Shown: in pieces, positions 9,784 to 51,184 of the stretch | Layout of the letters: each line of letters begins with the position of its first letter | How positions within the stretch are numbered: the stretch's first letter is position 1 | Assembly (NCBI RefSeq): GCF_000372725.1 | Contig: NW_005201092.1 | Coordinates: 117,683 to 169,345 of the forward strand | Direction: 5' to 3' | Source: Emiliania huxleyi CCMP1516 | Lineage: Eukaryota | Length of the DNA stretch: 51,663 nt | Program-made: the position numbers and the translations under genes | Notes under the pieces: generated by a model | Told to the model about the DNA's origin: nothing | Database searches by the model: none | The model's input: the letters and a program-made list of their open reading frames with translations, nothing else

Positions 9784-11231
9784 ATGATGGAGCCACACAT
9801 TGTGTGTGTGACTTTGCTCCTCTCCGTCATCAGCGGGTGCGCCGCACACGGCGCCATCGTCAGCCCGCGCAGCCGCAATTCGATTGACTACCTCGCCGGC
9901 GTCCGCGGAATCGACCGCTGCTACAACTTTTCGGGACCGGCGTGCGAAAACGGGCAAGCGGCCCACTACTACTCGCAGGGCTGCACGATCGGCTGCCCGA
10001 CGTGCGACCACGTCAGCGGGCGCCAGCAGGTCGACCTGTGCGGCCTCGGCAAGTCGGCGACGCTGCCCGACTATGCGCGCAGCGTGAACCGGCAGGCGGC
10101 GGCGGGCTCGGACCTCGACATCTACAAGCACAACCCGTGGCGCGCCCCCGGCTCCGCGCCCGTCGCCGACGCGTGCGGGCTCGCTGGCGGCACGCCGTGG
10201 GGCGCCGACGCGCCCGAAGAGGGCAGGTACGTCGCGCCGCGCTTTTTCTGTTTTGTCGTGGGCATGGGGAATTCTTTTTTGTGTCTTCACAGGTACGTCA
10301 ACACGAGCTTTGCGCACCACGGCATGCGGGGCACGGCGCTGCGCGAGCTGGCGACGGGGGTTCGGTGGGTGATCGGCGGGGCGGCGGAGGTGACGTGGCA
10401 GGTTCGCAACAACCACGGAGGAGGGTACAGCTACCGGCTCTGCCCCGCGGGCGAGGCGCTCACCGAGGCCTGCTTCCAGCGCCACCCGCTCCCCTTCGAG
10501 CGCACCAAGCAGGCGTGCTCTTCTTAGACCGCTACGCTGGTCGCAGTTTTGGTAGTGGCAGCGGTAGTAGAAGCAGTAGGAGGAGGAGGGGGAGGAGGAG
10601 GAGGAGTGGAGGAGGTGTTGGTAGGAGTAGGAGTGAGAGGAGGAGGAGGAGAGTAGCAGCAGCTGCTGCTGCTGCTGCACGAGGAGGCGCAGTAGCAGCT
10701 GGCCAGACTGTGCCTTCACATTCTTTGCCCAGCTGGCTAGGCCCTCGTCGTCGCGAGCGGCCAGAAGGTGCCGATCCGAGGCCTCTTTGTCGACGAAGGC
10801 ACCCGAGATTACCCCCGAGATTACCCGAGATTACCCCCGAGATTACCCCCGAGATTACCCGCGGCCTCTTTGTCGACGAAGGCACCTCGCCTCCCGAGAT
10901 ACCCCCGAGATTACTCGAGATTCCCCCCGAGATTACCACAGATTACCACAGATTACCCCCGAGATTACCCCCGAGATTGCCCGAGATGACCCGAGATTGC
11001 CCGAGATTAGGCACCTCGCCTCCCGGCTCGACGTGGGCGCGGCTGCCTCTTCCAGCGGACATCCTCGGTCCGCGCTGCGCGTGCAGGCGTGCACCTCTGC
11101 TAGTCCTCGTGTGCTCACACCACCACACTGTGGGGGGGGAGATGCCCGAGCCATGTCCATGTCCATGTGCATGTGCATGTCCATGTCCATGTCCATGTCC
11201 ATGTCCATGTCCATGTCCATGTCCATGTCCA

Positions 11232-14719: not shown

Positions 14720-16163
14720 CAGACGCCGTAGCGCGCTGCCATGGTGGCCGCTGCCTTGGGCAGTGGCCACGGTGGCCGACCCAGGGCTCCTACGCGGCTA
14801 CAGCCGCGCGCGACCGCTGCCGCTGGCACCGGTCGCGAGGACTCTGGCTCGGCATGCGCGCCACCGAGGTTCCGCTTCTATCCGCACGGGCTGACGCCGG
14901 CTGCGGAGCTGCTTCCCCTGGCCCAGTTCTCGTCCACCCACGAGTTCCTGCACCAGGCGCAGCGGCGGTACACCTCTGGTGTGCACCACGCTAACTGGCT
15001 CAACCTTGCCAAGGAGCTTACCGACGAGGCGCTTCGCAGTGGCGGCCGCAAGGCGCCCTCCAAAGGCAACAAGGTCGGAAGACGCAAGAACCACAAATGC
15101 TGGCGAGAGGCGATCCGTTTTGTCGCCGTCAGCCAACCAGGGGCCGGCGCCTTCCTCAACGCCATCCCCATGCGTGATGATATGAAGATGGAGTCCTGGG
15201 CGATGCGCGTCACCGTCCAGCGCCGCCTTGGGCTCCCCCTTGATGTCGCCTGCCAGGCGGTGGAGGCAGGCAAGAGGGCACCCAGCGGCCAGCTACACGA
15301 CGTCTTTGGCGACGCCGCGATGGTTAACCCTCGGTCAAAGCATGCTACAAGACACAAATTTCTACTCAAACGTTTGATCAAATGCCTCCGCTCGGCGTGG
15401 GGCATGATCATCGAGATGGAGCCGACTGCACACCTCAGTTACAGTAATCCAAAACAACCTGACGTGGCGGCGGCAAACATCGGCAGGGGGCACAGGCGCC
15501 TTGTTGCCGATTTGAAGCTCACGAGCTCGCTTGCGAGCCAGGGCAAGGACACGGCCGGCGACGGAGAGCTCGGCTGGAAGGGGGCCTATGTGCGTTTTGG
15601 CAACACGGAGACCGGGCTGCTCAAGTTGGTCAAAGGGCGCGGCAAGTGGTCTCCGTCGGGAGCGACGGCAGCGGCGGTGGCGGGGGAGGAGGAGGAGGCC
15701 GAGGAGGAGGGGGAGGAGGGGGAGGAGGAGGATGCCCCCAAGGGAAAGCTCAAGGAGCTGCCTGGCGATTACCCCTTTGCGCGGCAGCAGGATTGCGATC
15801 TACGTTTGTTTGATTTTGAGGCTTTCGGAGGCTTTGGAAAGGAGGTTCGCAGCACCCTGAGGGAGGCGGCGAACCAGCTGAGCAACAAACTTTCGCACGC
15901 TCAGCACCTGGACGAGGTCACATGGACCACCAAGAACTGGCACGGGCTGCAGATGCAGCGCTTGTCTGTCGTCCTCCACACCGCCGTGGCGTGGCAGACG
16001 GTGAACGAGCTAGCGTGCGGGGAGAGCGGCATTGTGCATGGTGCGGAGTGCATTGCCGTTCTTAACGGAGTCGCTTAGGCGGCTCCGGTGGTGAGCCTGT
16101 GTGTGTGCCAGTCCGCGCCAGTCCGCGCCCTTGTCGTGCCAGTGTGCTGTGAGAGAGGCTTGT
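14720..16163 (+). mobile_element. 5'-truncated CRE-clade non-LTR retrotransposon (C-terminal restriction-like endonuclease region, no RT)
   Basis: ORF 14741-16078 contains AFLNAIP...QRRLGLPL...DVFGD...RH...EP...QPD...ADLK...EAFGGFG...QRLSVVL, the post-RT/RLE pattern of CRE-type elements. Confidence 0.75.
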
Positions 16164-22970: not shown

Positions 22971-23699
22971 ATCGGGATGTGATCTGTGATCTGTGAGGGT
23001 CCGCCCGCAGGCGCATTTTGTGTACCGAGGCGGTGCCCGGTGCCGAACCTGTCGGACCTTGAGACAGCATTGTAGATCCCCCTGGGCGAGGGTGGTGGCG
23101 TCCCCGTCGGGAGCACGGGAGGGGCTGTCTGGCGCGTGGCGGAGGCATGGTGAAAATTCTTTTTCGGCTCGTTATTTTCTTTTTCTCGCAGGAGTCGCCG
23201 TCGATCGTGCAAGACTTCCACCACGAACGATGTCCTCGCGACGGAGGACGCGCACCCACTGCGCGGCGGCGGAAGCCCCGGCGGGGACGACCTCGCCTGC
23301 CCCATTGGCACGATTCTCGACCCCAAGCAAGGGCGCGATGGGTCTCTCCCGCCCGGCGGCTTCATTCACAACCTCTGCCGCGGCGACGCGGGCTGGCGAA
23401 AGGCCCGACGTGGCCGTTTTACGTGCAGTCGGCGGTCCTGTCACTCTCGAAAGAAGAGTTTGGGGATGACCTCTCTGCGGACATCGCCATCGCCATCGAT
23501 CCGACGCTCAAGTTTGCTGAGTGTGTGAGTGAGTATTCTTATGATTGCACAAGCAACACGATGGCACTACTCAGCGTCGAGCCTTGTGATAGGGGCGGTG
23601 CTTGCCGTGTTAAAGTGCGGCTGATGGTGGAGGCGTCAGGAGTTATACTTCGACCCTGTCGACGGGACGCCACCACGCCCCAACAGCTTCAGCAGCAAC

Positions 23700-24170
23700 C
23701 GCCCGACTGGACGGCGTACACTGATGGGTCGGAAGACGGAGGCAGGGCAGGATGGGCGTACGCCGTAGTCATGGGCGGGGACGGCATATGCGACGTGAAT
23801 GCCATGCTCGTGACCGAAAGCTACGGCCCCGTCGTGACTAGCCCCGTACACGCCGCTTTCGTGGGGGCGCGGAAACACACCAATAACACGGCGGAGCTGT
23901 CAGCGCTTGCGGAGCTTTTTCGCTCACTACTCCACACGGCACCACGACCAGCAGGCTCACGAGGGGTGGTCCGAACGGACAGCGAGTACGCGATGGCGTG
24001 TGCGACGGGGAGAATCTCGCCGGGGGAGAACGCACAACTAGCGAGCTATCTTCGAGCAGCGTGGCGGCATTTAGCGTCGAGGCACGAAGTGACATGGAGA
24101 CACGTCAAGGGGCACAGTGGTCATAAGTGGAACGACTACGTCGATAAGCAAGCCGACCTCGGCAGGAGCG
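23700..24170 (+). mobile_element. Ribonuclease HI domain, probably retroelement-derived (within ORF 23147-24421)
   Basis: YTDGS...GA..HTNNTAEL...TDSEYA...HVKGHSGHKWNDYVDKQA supplies the DEDD residues plus His. Intronless; no RT or endonuclease nearby. Confidence 0.75.
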
Positions 24171-25488
24171 GCGCGAGGGATTGCGGCGCGCCGGAGTGGC
24201 AAGACGAATCTGTCCCAACAGACGCAGACGACGGGGAGAGCAGCACCGTGGGCGACGACGTGGTTATTAACGGAGGAGGTACATCAACCATCCCACTCGA
24301 CGACATCGGTGATGGGGCCTCTAGCTACGCCGATGACCCACCCGACTCCCCCGAAAACGAACCGCCGCCTAGCGCCCCGCCCTCGGGCCGCCTAAAGCCC
24401 CAGTCGTGGAGCAGGGGGTGATATGGATTTCATACACGCCGAGCGCGCAGGCGCGACACATCGGAGACAATAAGGGGATCCGGCGTGAAAGAGCTATCGA
24501 CATTGACGTTGACCCAGCCGATTCCACCGACGTCGACGCCATCACCTCCGCGGCTACCGCGCTTTTGCTCGACGACACCGTGGAGAATCGCACCGAGGAC
24601 CTTGCCGAGGCGATAGGCCGAATATCACTTTGGGCCCCGACTCCGCCCCCACCCCTCGGGGTGGGGGCACCCGCCCCTGTCGGGCACCGCTTGCGGCGCC
24701 TGGCAGGGGCACCCCCTGGGTGGGGGCCGGCGATTCCCATGCCGGCTCTCCGCCACAACCCCCGCCGGGAGGGAATCCCTGCTCACAGAAAAGGGCTTCG
24801 AGCCCTGCCTCGCGCACGCCCCTGGCGGGCGCTGCGGACCAGTTCCGCGAGCGCTCGTCAGCGGGTGGTGTGCGGTTCTTGCCGTAGTTCCTCTTCGGTC
24901 GCCTAGCCCCGGCGCCTTCTGTCGGACGCCTGCGTGTCACGAGTGCGAGCCGCTCGCGGTTCGTACGCCCGCTTGCGGGTTCGAGTGGCGGGCCATCCCG
25001 CTTGCGGGATGGCTTAGCGGGTTCGAGCCGTCACACATTGGCTGCCGGGGTGTGCCGAGGGGGGGCTGGGTGGGCGGTAAGCCGTCATTGCCCGACGCTG
25101 CTACCTTGCAGCGCTCTGGGTGGTAGTGGCGGCGCTCCAAGAGTGGTGCTCTTGGGAAGAGGTTCCTCCTTCCCCCCCCCCCCCCCCCGCAAGGCGCGAG
25201 ACACACATTCTTGATACGAAACCACGACCACACCAGTCGACTCGCATCGGTTGCCTCCATTAACGGCGGAGCTATTCTCGCGCCCACACCACACCTGGCT
25301 CCAACGTGGACACGCCCATAGCTGGGACACACACTCACTCAAGTTTGCTGGTACTCTCGGCGCCTTCACACAGCCACAGCGCCCGCCCCGCTCCGAAGCT
25401 CAAGTTTGCGAACGACTGTGCACGCTGTTTCCTGCACGCTGAGACGCTCTGGAGTCCTCTCGGTGCTCTCCATCTGAGAGGACCGTCC

Positions 25489-36537: not shown

Positions 36538-36918
36538 TCGACTCGGACTGACCGACGGCTCTGCCGAGGGCACTGCCCAGGGCAGAGCCCGCCGCCGCGC
36601 CCGGGGCGGAAGAGGGTCGCGGCGAGATCGTGGGCGGGTGGGTGGGCGGTGGGGGAGGCCGGCGGAGGCGGCGGCGAGGTCGAGATGACTACGTGGTAGT
36701 GCCTGATTTGGTTCCCGCGAGCAGGTCGCTTGTGGCACGCACGCACGGCCCTTGGCTGAAGAAGGAAGGGCACCCTTTTCGCCAGCCCGACGAGCACTGC
36801 TCCGAGCAGCTCGCCTTTCGTGGGGTGGGCGGACTGCCAGAGACTTTTTGACTGCCGCGGTGGCGGTCGTGCCGGTGGATCGTGGAAGTACCTCTCTGGA
36901 AGTCCCCCCGCCGCCGGG
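36538..36918 (+). repeat. Dispersed repeat B, uninterrupted (empty-site) copy
   Basis: Colinear with 45013-45218 + 47752-47782 + 48613-48735. Confidence 0.9.
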
Positions 36919-38163
36919 GGCAGTGTATTCTATATAGGCTGTAGAGCGGTCCCGACTCCCGAGGTCCCGCGTCTTTAGTGCATAGTGGGGGAAATGGTCC
37001 ATGATTCATTTTCCAAGCCCCAAAACCCAAGGACGGAAACCCCTCGAGGCGTTTGTGAGAGGCGTTTTCGTTCGGCGTCTACGGCTTTATGATGACGGTG
37101 ACAACCGCGGGTAGACCGCTCCTCGAGCGTCGAGGCATGGAAGCGATGGATATTTGCACTTCTCGGGGGCCTCAGCCCTCAGGGCCCGGACTGCTTGGCC
37201 CTGGCGATGGAGCTGCAGCCGGGCGCGCCGGACGCCGCCGCCGCGGCGGGGGCATCCAACTTTCCAAAGGACTCCAAAAGTCGGAAAAGTTGGACGGATG
37301 GCATCATGATGTGGCGTTTGTGTACAGTTTGAGAGGGTCTTTCACATTCACACGTCCGCGGTCATCAGCCAGCGCAAACATGAGAGGGATCGCACGCGCG
37401 CCAGCAGCAGCCCGGGGGGAGGGCGCGCTCTCTCTCTGCCTCTGCGCAGAGCTCTGGGCAAGTGCGTGTGAGGCGCGCAGAGCGCGCGTCCGTTGCACGG
37501 TCCGACTAGGGCACCAATCGGCGCCGAACGCGCGCGCCAGAGCGGGTTGGGGTCGCTCGGTACATGCCCTGGCGCGTGCCAGGACGGCTGCCGAGGGCCT
37601 GCGGCAGGGGGCGAGGGTGAGCTTCAAGGACCAGAAAGGACCTCACCGCCTGGGGGGATCTGCTCTGGGGTGACAGGGGATGGTTGGGTATGTGTGGCTA
37701 CGTGTACCATTGTGTACCACTGGAGATCTGGAACCCTTCTCGGGCCCTCTCGAGCTCTGGCGCAGCGCTGCGCTGCAGGCTGTGCGAGTGGTGTGACGGC
37801 GCGCCTCTCGGTGGTTGGGCGGAGGTCGTGCCGTTGGAGGCCCGGAGCCGCGGCGGCGAGTCGCGCATATTCGTCGCCGGCGCGCGCGCCGGCTGTGAAC
37901 AAACGTAGTCGAGAGGGGGACGCACGCACGCGCCCCTTGAACGAGGCTCGGCCGTCCCACAGACTTGACGAGGCGAGACTCGCCTCTCGGGTTGACTCGG
38001 CCAGACAAAAACCCCGAGAGGCGTGGGAGTACCTCGCCAGCCCATGTCTCTCTGTGTGCAGGTGTGCTCGCCGCAGCCTCCACAAACGTTGGCAACGGAT
38101 TCCGGTCGTGCACCCATCGACGGCGAGGCGCAAAACTCCGGCCAGCACGCCGCGCACGCACCA

Positions 38164-44203: not shown

Positions 44204-44804
44204 GGCTAGTGCCATGATCACTCTGACACGCTAATCTTGAAAACGTCTCCAACGGAGCTCCGTGTTGCTTCCAGCGCCCTCCCCCGCGCTCCCTGCGGCC
44301 ATGGCCGATGATCCTAGTATGAGAGGTCATCTGGCTACCGCGAGAGCGACCCAACTCGTCGACATCGTCCGATGATGGTGCCTCAAAGTCAGCCTTCGGA
44401 GGCTATCGTGGGGTCGAGCCGGCAGTAGCCGTGACATGTGGTTCCACCACCCCTCGTAGGCTTTGCCTCTGACCGCCACCGTTCCCAGGCTGCCTAATGG
44501 GATGGAAAGAAAGGCTCGGCGAGCGTATAGAAGCGTTCTCGACCTCGTCGTGGCAACCTGCACGGCAGCGCTGGCAGGCGCGATGAGCGTCGTGCCACCT
44601 GACCCGAGACGGGTCGCAGGCGTCGTACCGAGCGCGTCGAGACCGTGTCATGATGTGATCTGCACGGGTGAGTCACGTCGGCGTCAAAGGAGCGACGTGT
44701 GACTTGTCAGAGCTTGATCTCCGATCTCAGCGGCGTCGAGTCGTCTCCGGCGCGCTACAAAGGTACATCCACAGGACGCGCAGAGGCAGCTGCGACCCCG
44801 CTGA
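44204..44804 (+). mobile_element. MITE copy 1 (left part; right end lost in a gap)
   Basis: High identity over ~600 bp to 47783-48383; begins GGCTAGTGCCA. Confidence 0.8.
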
Positions 44805-45564
44805 NNNNNNNNNNNNNNNNNNNNNNNNNNNNNNNNNNNNNNNNNNNNNNNNNNNNNNNNNNNNNNNNNNNNNNNNNNNNNNNNNNNNNNNNNNNNNNNN
44901 NNNNNNNNNNNNNNNNNNNNNNNNNNNNNNNNNNNNNAGCGGGGCGAGTCGGAGAGGGCCAGGGCGAGGGGCGGCCGGGGCGACGGCCGCCGGCGGAGGA
45001 GCACGTCTCGCTCCGACTCGGACTGACCGACGGCTCTGCCGAGGGCACTGCCCAGGGCAGAGCCCGCCGCCGCCCCAAGGGCGGAAGAGGGTCGCGGCGA
45101 GATCGTGGGCGGGTGGGTGGGGGGTGGGGGAGGCCGGCGGAGGCGGCGGCGAGGTCGAGATGACTACGTCGGTGGTAGTGCCCGATTTGGTTCCCGCGAG
45201 CAGGTCGCTTGTGGCACGTTACCGCGCTGCAACAGCGCGCGTTTTTTGGCTAGGCGCTGTTCACAGACCTTACAAACCTCCCATACATACGCAAAACAAC
45301 CCCGGGCTCTAGACGCATCGGAGCCCGAACTCCGTGTATGTGGGGCGAGCTGTGTACACACACTACGCAGCGCTCTCTCGGATCCACACGTACACACGTG
45401 TAAACCTGTAAACCGCCGCGCACGTCGCCGAGAGCGAGCGTCAAAGCCACGGCCGGCCGATCGGGTGCCCCAACATGATGCAGCATCCGCACCGCGCTCG
45501 ACAAGTTCCACATCGACCGCTCGAGGTGGCCCGAGCTCGCCGCCGATCGCTCCGTCGGCCTGGA

Positions 45565-45738
45565 GTACTTGAGCTGTACGCGCGGCGCCTTCTCGTCGTC
45601 GGAGAACTCGATCTTGTACTCGAAATTGTTGAAGCCGAGGATCAGCTCGCGGTGCCCGTGGAAGAGCTGCAGCACGCGGTCTATGACACCGGGCGTGTCG
45701 ATCGACTGCGCCTTGAACTCCTTCATGATGTCGAGGAA
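45565..45738 (-). pseudogene. SIN3: Isolated Sin3 PAH1-domain exon fragment
   Basis: [44 protein letters not shown] follows a pyrimidine/CAG acceptor. The conserved LPP is missing and no other Sin3 exons are seen. Confidence 0.8.
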
Positions 45739-46195
45739 CTGGAGGAGGAGAGGAGGGGTGGCGGCTAGGCGGAGGTGTGACGAGAGGCGTGCCAGTGTCA
45801 GTGAGTATATTGTAGAAGCCACCCCATGTGCACAGTATCTTGACTGAGAGCTAAGCCAGGGGAGGCGATGCCGGGGCCGTACAGCAGCTTGATGGTGCTT
45901 CGCCGGCGTAGAAGCGGCCGCGGCGGGCTCCGGATGCCTGAAAAAGACGGATTTACGTGGGCTGTGGGAGATTTACTGTCGACCCAAACGACACTGTGGC
46001 GTGAACCTCTCAGACGGCGCTAAATATTTTCCGAGCCGTTTTAAAGTTCCACCGCTACGACTGGAGATAAATCGAGATTTGCTCTCGTTAAAGCGCACTG
46101 GTTTTTTAATTAATCATGCAAATCCGCGGAAGGAGCTTGCTTGCTCACCTTGCGCTGTCGGCTCCACCTTACTCTCTGCCCCAAACCGCGCCGCC

Positions 46196-47629
46196 ATGGC
46201 TTCCGACTTCTCGCTCGAGGACCCCGCCCGCTCCTCTGTCGCGCGCGGCTCGCGTCACAGCCAGCGCCAGAGCATCGACCTCTCCCAGTCCATGGTCGAG
46301 TCCGGCAACGCTTTTGGCGACCCGCCGTTGGTGCGGCCGTCGTGGCTGCAGCGGCAGTGGACCTTCTTCTGCGGCACTCCGTGCCGCGCGATGCTCGGCT
46401 GTGGTACGATCGTGCTGCTCGGACTCATCATATTCGTGCCCGTCTCTTTCGCCGAAACCTTTGCGCCCGGGCAGAGGACGTGCACTGGGGCAGGTGAAGA
46501 CTACTGCCAACCGGGCATTGCACGTTGCGGTCCATCCCCGCCATCAATCATCCTACCATGGGAAGACCAGATACCTCCCCACATACGCGACGACGATCCC
46601 AGCTGCTGCGAAGGGCTCTTTCCGAAGAAGTTGTTCGTCCGAGGGCAATTCAGGTGGATCTGCAAGCCTTTCGATGGAGTGTGTGTCAGCAAGGACTCGA
46701 CTTCACAGTGCTGGATCACCCCGCCGGGGAAACCGTCGTCGATACCATTCAACGATACCATTCAACACGGTGCTCCTGACCAGTGCAAACGCGTCTGGGG
46801 TGACCAACCAGGGATTGAGGTCTGCGATGGGATCAAGGATTATTGCGAGGACACTGGCTACGGGTGCAACGGCAACTACTGCTCGTTCGGACGGGGCGAA
46901 GGAGGTGGGTATTCCTGCATGACCGACCAGCACCCAATTTATGATGCGTTTAACCGCAAATATGATGCGTTTAACCGCGGCTATAATGATCCTAGCCTGT
47001 TGGGTCCTTACTTTGACATGCACAGCATCAGCGATTCTCCTTCCTTGGACAACGTCAACTTGTACAGCCCACAAGGGACGTACGTGATGCGAGCCTTCAA
47101 CTGTCACTCCACGTATGATGCATTGAAGATTGATCAACACACTTCGCTTTCTCCTTGGTGGTTGATGCCATGCCGTGGATGCCCTAACCCGAGGGAACAG
47201 AAGGGCTGTCTGGCATATGGCGACGCAGTGCGGGTGCAATATCTAATGATTTCCACACCACTTAGTGACGCTTACGACGCTGGTAAACCAGCAAGGACAT
47301 TCGGAGCGGAACACCACGACCCTTATGGCAGATTCAACGTATCAGGAATTGAACGGAATGTGACTTGGCTCTCACTGCCCTGGGAACAAGAAGGTAACCG
47401 TGATTCACCAGAGACAACCTTTGAGATGTTGGGGGCCGCGCGTCTCGACATCGAAGGATTTTTCAATGTTGCGTGCATCCAAGACGCAATTCGAGCCGAC
47501 CTTAAAGGAATTCCGGCTGCCCAGCTCGAAGCTGCTCTGACGCTGGCCACTACAACGCACACAGTGCACAACCGCAGCTGCGAGTGTGTGTGGACGAGTG
47601 GCAAGTGCGAGCCTGCGATATCGTCGTAG
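46196..47629 (+). CDS. Intronless Cys-rich type II membrane protein of unknown function
   Basis: GCCGCCATGG start; TM segment TIVLLGLIIFVPVSF; many Cys and N-glycosylation sequons. The 3' part is visibly more AT-rich than its surroundings. Confidence 0.7.
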   Translation: MASDFSLEDPARSSVARGSRHSQRQSIDLSQSMVESGNAFGDPPLVRPSWLQRQWTFFCGTPCRAMLGCGTIVLLGLIIFVPVSFAETFAPGQRTCTGAGEDYCQPGIARCGPSPPSIILPWEDQIPPHIRDDDPSCCEGLFPKKLFVRGQFRWICKPFDGVCVSKDSTSQCWITPPGKPSSIPFNDTIQHGAPDQCKRVWGDQPGIEVCDGIKDYCEDTGYGCNGNYCSFGRGEGGGYSCMTDQHPIYDAFNRKYDAFNRGYNDPSLLGPYFDMHSISDSPSLDNVNLYSPQGTYVMRAFNCHSTYDALKIDQHTSLSPWWLMPCRGCPNPREQKGCLAYGDAVRVQYLMISTPLSDAYDAGKPARTFGAEHHDPYGRFNVSGIERNVTWLSLPWEQEGNRDSPETTFEMLGAARLDIEGFFNVACIQDAIRADLKGIPAAQLEAALTLATTTHTVHNRSCECVWTSGKCEPAISS

Positions 47630-47782
47630 GTTCGACGGGAATGCTCCAACTCGGGGCCGAGTACTGCGATGGGGAAGATGAGCCATCGCCCTCGCAGCCA
47701 TCGCCCGAAGCGCCGCCGTCGGTGGGCCCGACTGCAGGAGCGGCCGCGTAGCGCACGCACGGCCCTTGGCTGAAGAAGGAAG

Positions 47783-48612
47783 GGCTAGTTCCAATTCACT
47801 CTGACACGCTAATCTTGAAAACGCGTCCAACGGAGCTCCGTGTTGCTCCCAGCGCCCTCCCCCGAGCTTCCTGCGGCCATGGCCGGTGCTACTAGTATGG
47901 GGGGCTACCTGGCTACCGCGAGAGCGACCCAACTCGTCGACATCGTCCGATGATGGTGCCTCAAAGTCAGCCTTCGGAGGCTATCGTGGGGTCGAGCCGG
48001 CAGTAGCCGCGACATGTGGTTCCACCACCCCTCGTAGGCTTTGCCTCTGCTCGCCACCGTTCCCATGCTGCCTAATGGGATGGAAAGGGAGGCTGGGCGA
48101 GCGTATAGAAGCGTGCTCGACCTCGTCGTGGCAACCTGCACGGCAGCGCTGGTAGGCGCGATGAGCGTCGTGCCACTTGACCCAAGACGGGTCGCAGGCG
48201 TCGTACCGAGCGCGTCGAGACCGTGTCCTGATGTGATCTGCACGGGTGAGTCACGTCGGCGTCAAAGGAGCGACGTGCGACCTGTCAGAGCTTGAATCTC
48301 CGATCTCAGCGGCGTCGAGTCATCTCCGGCGCGCGACAAAGGTACATCCCCAGGACGCGCAGAGGCAGCTGCGACCCCGCTGAGTGGACGNNNNNNNNNN
48401 NNNNNNNNNNNNNNNNNNNNNNNNNNNNNNNNNNNNNNNNNNNNNNNNNNNNNNNNNNNNNNNNNNNNNNNNNNNNNNNNNNNNNNNNNNACGCCGTCCA
48501 CTCGGCGGGGTCGCAGCTGCCTCTGGAAGGCACCGAGATGTACCTTTTTCGCGCAATGGTCAAAATCAAGGTTTTGTAACGCGAGCTGTGCCACAGTGAA
48601 ATGGAACTAGCC
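47783..48612. mobile_element. Non-autonomous TIR transposon (PIF/Harbinger-like MITE) with AAG TSD; contains a gap
   Basis: Left end GGCTAGTTCCAATTCACTCTGACAC; reverse complement of right end GGCTAGTTCCATTTCACTGTGGCAC. AAG at 47780-82 and 48613-15. Empty site GAAGG-AAG-GGCACCC near 36766. Confidence 0.88.
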
Positions 48613-48910
48613 AAGGGCACCCTTTTCGCCAGCCCGACGAGCACTGCTCCGAGCAGCGCCTTTCGTGGGGTGTGGGACAGCCATGGCGGTGCCGGTGGAA
48701 GTACCTCTCTCTGGAAGTCCCCCCGCGCCGCCGGCGGTCGACGTCGAGCGCCGTCCCGCGACTCCCGACACCCGAGTGGCGAGGGGCGAGCGTCCCGTCT
48801 TTTTGCATTTTGGCAACCCTTCAAGTGGTTGCTTAGTCCCGCACAGCGACACTCTTGTGTCTCGCGAGTCGTGTCTGTGATACCTGATACTCGCCTACGC
48901 TCTTCAACAC

Positions 48911-49055
48911 ATGCATTGCGAGCCTCGGGGGTGCATGTGCAGTACGCGCACACGGCACACAGACACACGACATAACGCAACGCATGCAAACGGCATGCAT
49001 CGGCAAGAAACACGCGCGGTGCTGAGCCGCCCGCACAGAGGGCGCGCGACGCACT
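48911..49055 (+). repeat. Dispersed repeat (second copy at ~50213-50342)
   Basis: ATGCATTGCGAG...GCAGTACGCGCACACGGC...CGGCAAGAAACACGCGCGGTGCTGAG is shared. Confidence 0.8.
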
Positions 49056-51184
49056 NNNNNNNNNNNNNNNNNNNNNNNNNNNNNNNNNNNNNNNNNNNNN
49101 NNNNNNNNNNNNNNNNNNNNNNNNNNNNNNNNNNNNNNNNNNNNNNNNNNNNNNNNNNNNNNNNNNNNNNNNNNNNNNNNNNNNNNNNNNNNNNNNNNNN
49201 NNNNNNNNNNNNNNNNNNNNNNNNNNNNNNNNNNNNNNNNNNNNNNNNNNNNNNNNNNNNNNNNNNNNNNNNGGCGCGGGGTTCGTCCGGCCTTAGAGAC
49301 GAGAGAAGAAGAGGGAGACGCGGCCCTGGCGGATGGCGCATTATCTTCATTGACAGAGCACCGTAACGCATATCAATCAGAACACAGGCCTGCAGGGCCA
49401 GGGCGCAGGGGGCGCGGGGCACCGAAAGCCAAAGAATGGCAAAACAAAAAAGAGTGAGAGCTTTATTTACCTCTGGAGCCGTATCGGCCCCAGCACACGC
49501 ACATTGTGAAACGAGAGTTGAGAGGATGGAGAGCCGTGTGTAGCATAGACAGGAGGAGGAGCGGATGCTTGCATGCGCTACTGTACGGGGTGTGGACCCT
49601 GAGTTGACCTGGGGTTGTGCGCTGGGCCCTCCTGCTCGGCTCCAGCCAGTAGACAAGTGTTACCATCAACAGAGGAGAAGGATATGACCTCAGGGCTGAT
49701 GTGACCAAGCGCTGGTAGCGTGGTTTTACCTCACACCCATGGTCTCACAGTGTGCCGGCAGTCGCCGAGCAGTGTCGCTCACACAAGCCGCAGCACGAGT
49801 GACTGAGGGCCAGTGAGGGCGAGCCCATCGCTGTCACAGCTGTGGCAGCCGCACAGTAGGCTGTGCCAACTGTGCAGAGCGTATGAGCAGCAGAGGAGCT
49901 GCTCTCCAGGCTTCAGGCGCAAAGAGCTGCATGCCACCGAAAGCGCTGTCGAGGTTCGCCGAGCGCGGCGAAATCGGGGGACGCCGTCACCGACGAGCGC
50001 GTTGGACTTTTCACTCCGGACAAAGACGGGTAGACGCACACGAGCCGCGGTCGTCTACCCGTCATAGCGGCGAGGCGTGGGACCGTCTGTGGCGAAGTGG
50101 GTCGCGTCCCCCGATTTCCTCAACTCAGGGTCCGCTCCCTCTATGTCAGGACTCTGTCAGGACTCTGTCAGGACTGTCAGGACAGTTGCGGGAGCTCCAC
50201 AAACCAGGTTACATGCATTGCGAGAGGGTGTGCATATGCAGTACGCGCACACGGCGACACAACGCAACGTATGCAAACGGTATGCATCGGCAAGAAACAC
50301 GCGCGGTGCTGAGGCGCGCGGACAGAGGGCGCGCGACGCACTCGCGGCGTGAGAGCCGGAAGAGGCAGGTGGGTTGGGTGGAGGTTTGGGGGGGGGGGGG
50401 GGGGGGGGTNNNNNNNNNNNNNNNNNNNNNNNNNNNNNNNNNNNNNNNNNNNNNNNNNNNNNNNNNNNNNNNNNNNNNNNNNNNNNNNNNNNNNNNNNNN
50501 NNNNNNNNNAGCCGGAGGGAGGAGGGAGGAGAGGAGGGAGGAGCGGAGAGGAGCGGAGGGAGGAGAGGAGGGAGGAGAGGAGGGGGGAGAGGAGGGAGGA
50601 GAGGAGAGGAGGAGGGAGGAGGGAGGAGAGGAGAGGAGGAGGGAGGAGGGAGGAGCGGAGAGGTGTGGGAGGGAGGGAGGGAGAGGAGAGCGGAGCGGAG
50701 GGAGGAGGCGGCAGAGGAGAGAGGGGGCAGGAGGGAGGAGGGCGGAGAGTGGAGTCGCGCGAGCGCCTCGTCAATCGCGGCATTGGCCATATCTCTCCCC
50801 GTATCTCCCCACATCTCCGAGCGCCTCGTCAATCGCGGCATTGGCCGCCGCCTCTGCGCTCGCCCACGCCGCCGCCTCCGTGTCGATCTCGCCTGATCTC
50901 GCGCGATTCCGAATCAGGCACGGCCTCCTGACCCGCACGCCCGTCGGAGAAATGGGGAGATACGGGGAGGTGTGGGGAGGTGTGGGGAGAGGTGGGGGGG
51001 AGGTGGGGAGATGTGGGGAGATGTGGGGAGGTGTGGGGAGGTGTGGGGAGATGCGTGTACTGACCAGGGGTGCGTTGCAGGGATGCGTGTACTGACCAGC
51101 TTATCTCTCGGCTCACCTCGGCTCCCCTCGGCTCCCCTCGGCTCCCCTCGCCTCCTCTCGGCTCCTCTCGCATCTAAAGCGCCG

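What the first reader, a model, noticed from the sequence alone, without database searches (positions are those of the whole stretch)
45219..47751. Gene-carrying 2.5-kb insertion without a transposase, at a CG dinucleotide
Seen: repeat B is intact at 36538-36918 but split here exactly at GGCA-CG-CACGCAC, with CG on both sides. The ends TTACCGCG... and ...GCGGCCGCGTAG are only weakly inverted. The cargo is a Sin3 exon fragment and an intact intronless membrane-protein ORF. Inference: a non-autonomous gene-capturing element. A 2-bp duplicated core without strong TIRs fits recombinase-type or HUH-type mobility better than a typical DDE element; the mobiliser is unknown.
Basis: partly seen in the sequence, partly recalled or inferred. 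Interest (0 to 1): 0.75.

Follow-up and report, generated by a model that had tools for sequence, protein, structure and literature searches.

The report
Patchwork insertion creating a chimeric gene
A real 2.5-kb insertion made of six pieces (two from identified host genes, two from repeats, two of unknown origin) splits a repeat and fuses the membrane anchor of one gene to an orphan cysteine-rich reading frame; it is likely a one-off product of DNA-break repair rather than a new mobile element.

Summary
The 2,533-bp insertion is real. It splits repeat B at a CG present on both sides; an empty-site contig and a contig bridging the right junction occur in public runs. The mechanistic hints fail testing: the end 'inversion' is chance-level (p about 0.15), and a 2-bp junction ambiguity arises by chance about 20% of the time. 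In the one DNA-like run only a single contig covers the right 1.3 kb, stopping 34 bp short of the end, while an internal 354-bp piece is the highly repeated part. The cargo is a mosaic: unknown left piece, LINE-like fragment, Sin3 PAH1 exon with splice acceptor, repeat, 5' end of a DUF3712-like membrane gene, and an orphan frame. The 'intact ORF' is a chimera: 83 aa are 93% identical to a 748-aa host protein, fused in frame to 394 orphan codons found in 5 of 5 runs laid. Best reading: multi-fragment templated insertion by break repair that made a probably transcribed new gene (0.5). An old Helitron-like capture element remains possible (0.25). No whole genome was available.

The parts
45219..47751 (.). 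The 2,533-bp mosaic insertion
   Evidence: empty-site joint 45216 to 47752 in X4
45014..45218 (+). Repeat B left arm, ending in the CG at 45217-45218
   Evidence: 95.6% to 36539-36739
47752..47785 (+). Repeat B resumes, starting with the second CG at 47752-47753
   Evidence: 100% to 36738-36771; bridged by X1 contig 46411-47811
36539..36925 (+). Uninterrupted copy of repeat B (empty site)
45219..45447 (.). Module 1: left piece of unknown origin, with a perfect 7-bp-stem hairpin at 45223-45239
   Evidence: hairpin frequency 0.9% in random 30-mers; fold
45448..45559 (+). Module 2: fragment of a repeated coding sequence; resembles the C-terminal end of an RTE-type LINE ORF (recalled motif, untested); window copy lacks 8 nt
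   Evidence: contigs in X1, X2, X3 match 45448-45552 and run on unlike on both sides; translation; no Pfam hit
45565..45792 (-). Module 3: Sin3 PAH1 exon piece (45565-45738) with polypyrimidine tract and CAG acceptor upstream; local 9-nt-shorter patch at about 45618-45626 whose filler repeats 45606-45611
45793..46146 (.). Module 4: piece of a highly repeated, lower-GC sequence (repeat C)
   Evidence: many X2 contigs, summed depth up to 3,804 against 12.5 on the orphan part
46147..46440 (+). Module 5: about 50 nt of 5' UTR and the first 82-83 codons (cytoplasmic tail and hydrophobic segment) of a 748-aa DUF3712-like host gene (P0001)
   Evidence: 93% over 83 aa; donor contigs depart at 46147 and 46440; weak DUF3712 hit, below curated cut-off
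46441..47751 (+). Module 6: orphan coding module (394 codons, 22 Cys, GC3 0.59) plus 122 nt of 3' flank
46196..47629 (+). Chimeric 477-aa ORF, predicted single membrane anchor at about aa 65-86
45250..45738 (-). Second, weaker chimeric frame: Sin3 PAH1 continuing 104 codons through modules 2 and 1
   Evidence: chance of staying open 4.7%
47783..48612 (.). Repeat A: separate TIR element with AAG on both sides, inserted 31 bp to the right in the same repeat-B copy
   Evidence: TIR score 16; second partial copy at 44204-44804

Best explanation
The segment is a patchwork of six DNA pieces inserted into repeat B, likely assembled and inserted once by double-strand-break repair (end joining with template switching) without any transposase, and it fuses the membrane anchor of a host gene in frame to an orphan cysteine-rich domain that is likely transcribed. 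Shown: the insertion, the module boundaries, the Sin3 and P0001 donors still existing intact, the in-frame fusion, and the presence of the orphan module in all runs laid. Inferred: break repair as the mechanism; one or several rounds of assembly; expression driven from the repeat C / P0001 5' region; a membrane-anchored protein with an outward-facing, disulfide-rich domain.
For: Donor contigs run on unlike the window at 45448, 45552, 45565, 45742, 46147 and 46440; modules are 110-350 bp plus one of 1.3 kb, with Sin3 on the minus strand and P0001 on the plus strand. The Sin3 piece keeps a splice acceptor, so it was likely copied from DNA. Junction overlap is 2 bp; yeast complex templated insertions show a median of 2 bp (range 0-4) at the break ends and can join several fragments from different loci (passages of PMC11724301). 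The Sin3 patch carries a filler that repeats an adjacent 6-mer, a pattern typical of synthesis-dependent end joining (sequence; interpretation from established knowledge). TIR (p=0.15) and ATIR (p=0.46) tests are chance-level. In DNA-like run X2 one unbranched contig covers 46411-47717 and nothing else is laid on the right end, whereas internal repeat C is covered by many contigs. The orphan frame is real coding sequence: 0 of 20,000 dinucleotide simulations stay open; its two known indels are in frame (21-nt duplication; 3-nt deletion in X5).
Against: A perfect 7-bp hairpin lies 4 nt inside the left end (0.9%; one of several features tested, and the fold z-score was only -1.4), and the right end is GTAG, one letter from the Helitron CTAG. 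The modules differ in divergence from their donors (module 2: 0 substitutions in 105 bp; P0001 piece: 10 in 293; p about 0.03 for equal age), which suggests stepwise assembly, as in gene-capturing transposons. The X2 contig stops 34 bp before the right end, so a short shared terminus is not excluded. No whole genome was available. No donor was found for modules 1 and 6.
Confidence: 0.5

Rival explanations
1. An old or low-copy non-autonomous Helitron-like (HUH) element that collected gene fragments in steps by read-through or gap repair.
For: No TIRs; the insert starts with T followed by a 7-bp hairpin, as Helitron2 5' ends do (PMC3627910 passages); it ends in GTAG with a 5-bp stem 18 nt upstream; multi-gene DNA fragments and chimeric ORFs are Helitron habits (PMC4778049); modules differ in divergence.
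Against: No 5'-TC / CTRR-3' ends in either orientation; target is G|C in GC-rich DNA, not A|T; ATIR test p=0.46; a 5-bp stem occurs in 12% of random 30-mers; no further contigs on the right end in X2.
Confidence: 0.25
2. A DNA circle integrated by a crossover at the CG, either by a tyrosine or serine recombinase (Crypton-like or IS607-like) or by microhomology.
For: The empty and filled sites fit a Campbell-type crossover at CG exactly; the two chimeric frames would end convergently at the circle joint.
Against: The core is only 2 bp (20% chance), whereas the one Crypton read about uses a 5-bp core; the arms around the core are not significantly inverted; no recombinase ORF was recognised among the 12 other window ORFs scanned against Pfam.
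Confidence: 0.12
3. Repeat B itself is the mobile vehicle (Pack-type), and the mosaic is cargo captured inside one B copy.
For: B is repeated, has internal inverted repeats, and this copy also took up repeat A.
Against: The outer ends of B abut assembly gaps and are undefined; no second cargo-bearing B copy was seen, since the orphan part is one contig in X2.
Confidence: 0.08
4. The left half (45219-46146) is a misassembly.
For: No listed contig bridges the junctions left of 46147 (the tables were cut).
Against: The left junction meets repeat B at exactly the base where B resumes on the right; a window-type 46187-46296 contig with 0 differences exists in X2.
Confidence: 0.05

Closest known systems
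Complex templated insertions at double-strand breaks (NHEJ / alt-EJ / MMBIR; PMC11724301, passages)
   Same: Several fragments copied from different loci, 2-bp overlap at the break ends, donors left intact, no terminal structure
   Different: Known mainly from induced breaks in yeast and from cancer cells; here it is a standing, shared allele that carries a long open chimeric frame
Gene-capturing non-autonomous Helitrons (PMC4778049, PMC3627910, passages)
   Same: No TIRs, DNA-level capture of gene fragments with a 5' region, chimeric ORF, hairpin near one end
   Different: No TC/CTRR ends, no ATIRs, G|C target, no further copies of the right end seen
Pack-MULE / Pack-CACTA elements (PMC13317346, passages)
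   Same: Fragments of several unlinked genes forming a chimeric transcript
   Different: No TIRs; the repeated DNA is in the middle, not at the ends
Cryptons and Replitrons (PMC9977147, PMC10288648, passages)
   Same: No TIRs; short duplicated letters at the junction
   Different: Core 2 bp rather than 5 bp; no terminal direct repeat; no RG target

Membership tests
Helitron1 | 5'-TC and CTRR-3' termini | tested here: not met
   Plus strand TT...GTAG, minus strand CT...GTAA (definition)
Helitron1 | Insertion between A and T without duplication | tested here: not met
   Site is CG in GC-rich DNA
Helitron1 | Subterminal 3' hairpin | tested here: inconclusive
   5-bp stem 18 nt from the right end (12% by chance); 7-bp stem 4 nt from the left end (0.9%)
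Helitron2 | 5' T followed by a 5' hairpin | tested here: met
   45219 T, stem 45223-45239
Helitron2 | [quoted passage not shown] | tested here: not met
   Best score reached by 46% of 1,500 random pairs, both orientations
Replitron | Short direct repeats at or near both termini | tested here: inconclusive
   None at the exact ends; a GC-rich 5-mer sits 3 nt inside both ends, significance not computed (definition)
Crypton | About 5-bp core shared by element terminus and target | tested here: not met
   Only CG is shared (definition)
Pack-type TIR (DDE) elements | Terminal inverted repeats | tested here: not met
   Score 3, p=0.145; control repeat A scores 16
Any non-autonomous transposon family | Both ends recur together at several loci | tested here: inconclusive
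   One contig only on 46441-47717 in X2 and no other contig on the right end; no genome held
Any non-autonomous transposon family | Autonomous partner sharing the ends | not testable with these tools
   No genome held
Complex templated insertion | Two or more fragments from different loci, donors retained | tested here: met
   Sin3, P0001 and module 2 donors continue in other contigs
Complex templated insertion | 0-4 bp microhomology at the break ends | tested here: met
   2 bp (range); also expected by chance 20% of the time
Complex templated insertion | Single occurrence in the genome | tested here: inconclusive
   Consistent with X2, but contig depth is not a copy number

The most novel reading that the evidence does not exclude
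A low-copy, previously undescribed gene-building element of a marine alga, moved as a circle through a 2-bp CG core by an unknown recombinase or HUH enzyme, with an internal repeat acting as a two-way promoter for two working chimeric genes: a membrane-anchored orphan ectodomain and a stand-alone Sin3 PAH1 decoy (all 5 listed substitutions in the PAH piece are synonymous).
Probability: 0.1. Interest if true: 0.75.

Novelty: new member of a known kind. Interest (0 to 1): 0.37.

Why it matters
If the best reading holds, this is a traceable case of gene birth: a surface-protein-like gene made by joining a host membrane anchor to an orphan domain, with the empty site and the donors still present, and shared among several samples and wild marine RNA. 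That is a useful example of how orphan genes arise in plankton, but the process is known. It would matter much more if a family of elements with these ends exists, which would be a new gene-capturing mobile system; the evidence here leans against that.

Tried and rejected
No whole genome is held, so copy number could not be counted. Left end: no contig was laid on 45219-45447 in any of the 5 runs laid; this is not used as evidence, because X2 also lacks the native Sin3 exon and part of repeat B. Left-end 21-mer: 0 matches in viral contigs; 3 in metagenome contigs, all chance, with no similarity beyond 21-23 nt. Repeat C pattern: 0 in viral and prokaryote contigs; weak, because the degenerate position was one base off the common variant at 45835. 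Repeat B empty-site pattern: 0 in viral contigs. No contig with a circle-type joint was listed, but the left end was uncovered. Orphan domain searches: none at near, longer or shorter lengths beyond the P0001 N-terminus; none in Pfam, viral contigs (35), prokaryote genomes (63), phages, PDB sequences or the Atlas. The one hit among 1.84 billion representatives (P0016, E=9e-7) is a singleton repetitive hypothetical protein matching one 40-aa stretch six times without the cysteines; rejected as spurious. The single-sequence structure model was unusable (pLDDT 32), so no fold search was run. Rfam: 0 matches. End folds were not more stable than shuffles. Earlier scan findings: nothing relevant in 7 look-ups.

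Full report
Setting. The window is GC-rich eukaryotic DNA with assembly gaps. Its style recalls the haptophyte Emiliania/Gephyrocapsa huxleyi; that name is recalled and was not established by any search. The runs holding the region are 4 from one coded organism and 6 marine metatranscriptomes. No whole genome is held.

Observation. Repeat B is continuous at 36539-36925. In the second copy its left arm (45014-45218, 95.6% identical) stops after a CG, and B resumes with a CG at 47752 (34 of 34 identical), so 2,533 bp are inserted. Run X4 has a contig joining 45216 to 47752 with two ambiguous letters (30 letters on the short side). Run X1 has a 1,401-nt contig, 0 differences, that crosses the right junction by 60 letters; X4 and X3 cross it by 30 and 5 letters, and X2 stops 34 short. 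The empty form therefore exists independently, and because the insert is built from pieces of other genes it is the derived state.

Anatomy. Laying 5 of the 10 listed runs splits the insert into six modules. (1) 45219-45447: unknown, with a perfect 7-bp hairpin at 45223-45239. (2) 45448-45559: matches contigs in X1, X2 and X3 that run on unlike the window on both sides; the window copy lacks 8 nt. Its plus-strand translation resembles the C-terminal end of an RTE-type LINE ORF; this is a recalled motif, and Pfam gave no hit. (3) 45565-45792: a Sin3 PAH1 exon piece on the minus strand, preceded by a polypyrimidine tract and CAG. Sin3 contigs in X1 and X3 leave the window at that boundary, as spliced RNA would. 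A patch at about 45618-45626 is 9 nt shorter than the donor and repeats the adjacent 6-mer at 45606-45611. (4) 45793-46146: covered by many X2 contigs (summed depth up to 3,804 against 12.5 on module 6; depth is not a copy number, but the contrast is large). (5) 46147-46440: the 5' end of a 748-aa gene (P0001, cluster of 51 members, weak DUF3712 hit below cut-off). (6) 46441-47751: orphan.

The ORF. The 477-codon frame is a fusion: 77 of the first 83 residues match P0001, then similarity stops, and P0001-type contigs depart at 46440 in X1, X3, X4 and X5. Contigs carrying the fusion begin at 46411 in 3 of 4 runs of the coded organism, 30 letters on the P0001 side, one short of the tool's bridging rule. 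The orphan part is coding: 0 of 20,000 dinucleotide simulations stay open for 394 codons; GC3 is 0.59 against 0.88 for the P0001 part and 0.68-0.83 for four other window ORFs. It has 22 cysteines, four N-glycosylation motifs and no second hydrophobic segment. It is identical in the listed contigs of X1-X4 and nearly so in marine RNA run X5 (3 substitutions and an in-frame 3-nt deletion in 581 nt). A 21-nt tandem duplication is also in frame. Transcription is likely but not shown: X1 and X4 are only guessed to be RNA, and RNA libraries can hold DNA. No credible relative was found. The P0001-derived part carries 5 residue changes and 3 purely synonymous changes against the donor, close to neutral.

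The ends. An anchored inverted-repeat score of 3 was reached by 14.5% of 1,500 random CG-anchored pairs, while the neighbouring repeat A scores 16. A Helitron2-type ATIR score was reached by 46% of 1,500 random pairs. The right-end 5-bp stem is common (12%); the left-end 7-bp stem is not (0.9% of 3,000), though it is one of several features tested. A blunt insertion shows 2 or more ambiguous letters about 20% of the time at this GC content. In X2, which looks like DNA (85.8-kb longest record, very deep on non-coding repeat A; inference), one unbranched contig covers 46411-47717, and the depth of the last bin (3.9) is explained by its tail. A family of recent copies sharing the right end would be expected to break that contig or add others. 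A shared terminus shorter than about 60 bp, or strongly diverged copies, would be missed.

Mechanism. The picture is several short pieces from unlinked loci in mixed orientation, copied from DNA, donors intact, a 2-bp overlap, a local deletion with templated filler, repeats inside rather than at the ends. It fits complex templated insertion at a break, for which 0-4 bp overlap and multi-fragment capture are described (PMC11724301, passages). Against a single step, module 2 has 0 substitutions in 105 bp while the P0001 piece has 10 in 293 (p about 0.03). Helitron-like stepwise capture stays the main rival because of the left hairpin and the GTAG end, but the 5'-TC/CTRR ends, AT target (PMC4778049, passages) and ATIRs (PMC3627910, passages) are absent. 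Crypton-type integration uses a 5-bp core in the case read (PMC9977147, passages). Replitrons have terminal direct repeats (PMC10288648, passages). Pack-type elements have TIRs (established knowledge; PMC13317346, passages).

Unexplained. All 5 listed substitutions in the Sin3 piece outside the patch are synonymous (about 0.0004 if neutral). The patch keeps frame, and the frame stays open 104 more codons (4.7% by chance). Either the donor was a diverged working allele or paralog, or the PAH1 piece is under selection; no window-type RNA contig for it was listed. The sources of modules 1 and 6 are unknown.

Literature. Eight searches (listings only) showed no paper describing this locus or such an element in this alga. 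The library lacks most subscription papers, and no supplements were read.

Verdict. A real insertion and a real chimeric frame; most likely a one-off repair mosaic (0.5) rather than a new mobile element. New member of a known kind; interest 0.37.

Noticed in passing
window 47783-48612 (second partial copy 44204-44804): Repeat A is an 830-bp non-coding TIR element with AAG on both sides, like a PIF/Harbinger-type MITE (family name recalled); very deep in run X2.
   Followed up: partly
window 45793-46146: Repeat C is deepest at its left end and fades rightward in X2; other copies show an inverted repeat near 45800-45850 that is decayed in the window copy (loose ends). It may be the terminus of a large transposon family.
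   Followed up: partly
window 45565-45738: All 5 listed substitutions in the Sin3 PAH1 piece against Sin3 contigs are synonymous and the local deletion keeps frame.
   Followed up: partly
window 14741-16078: 445-aa ORF that looks like the C-terminal endonuclease region of a non-LTR retroelement (recalled motif); no Pfam hit.
   Followed up: no
window 23147-24421: ORF with an RNase H domain (E=1e-13), possibly a retroelement remnant.
   Followed up: no
window 9784-10527: ORF with a weak LPMO_10 hit below cut-off.
   Followed up: no
window 48909-49055 and 50211-50342: Another short repeat pair, 84% identical.
   Followed up: no
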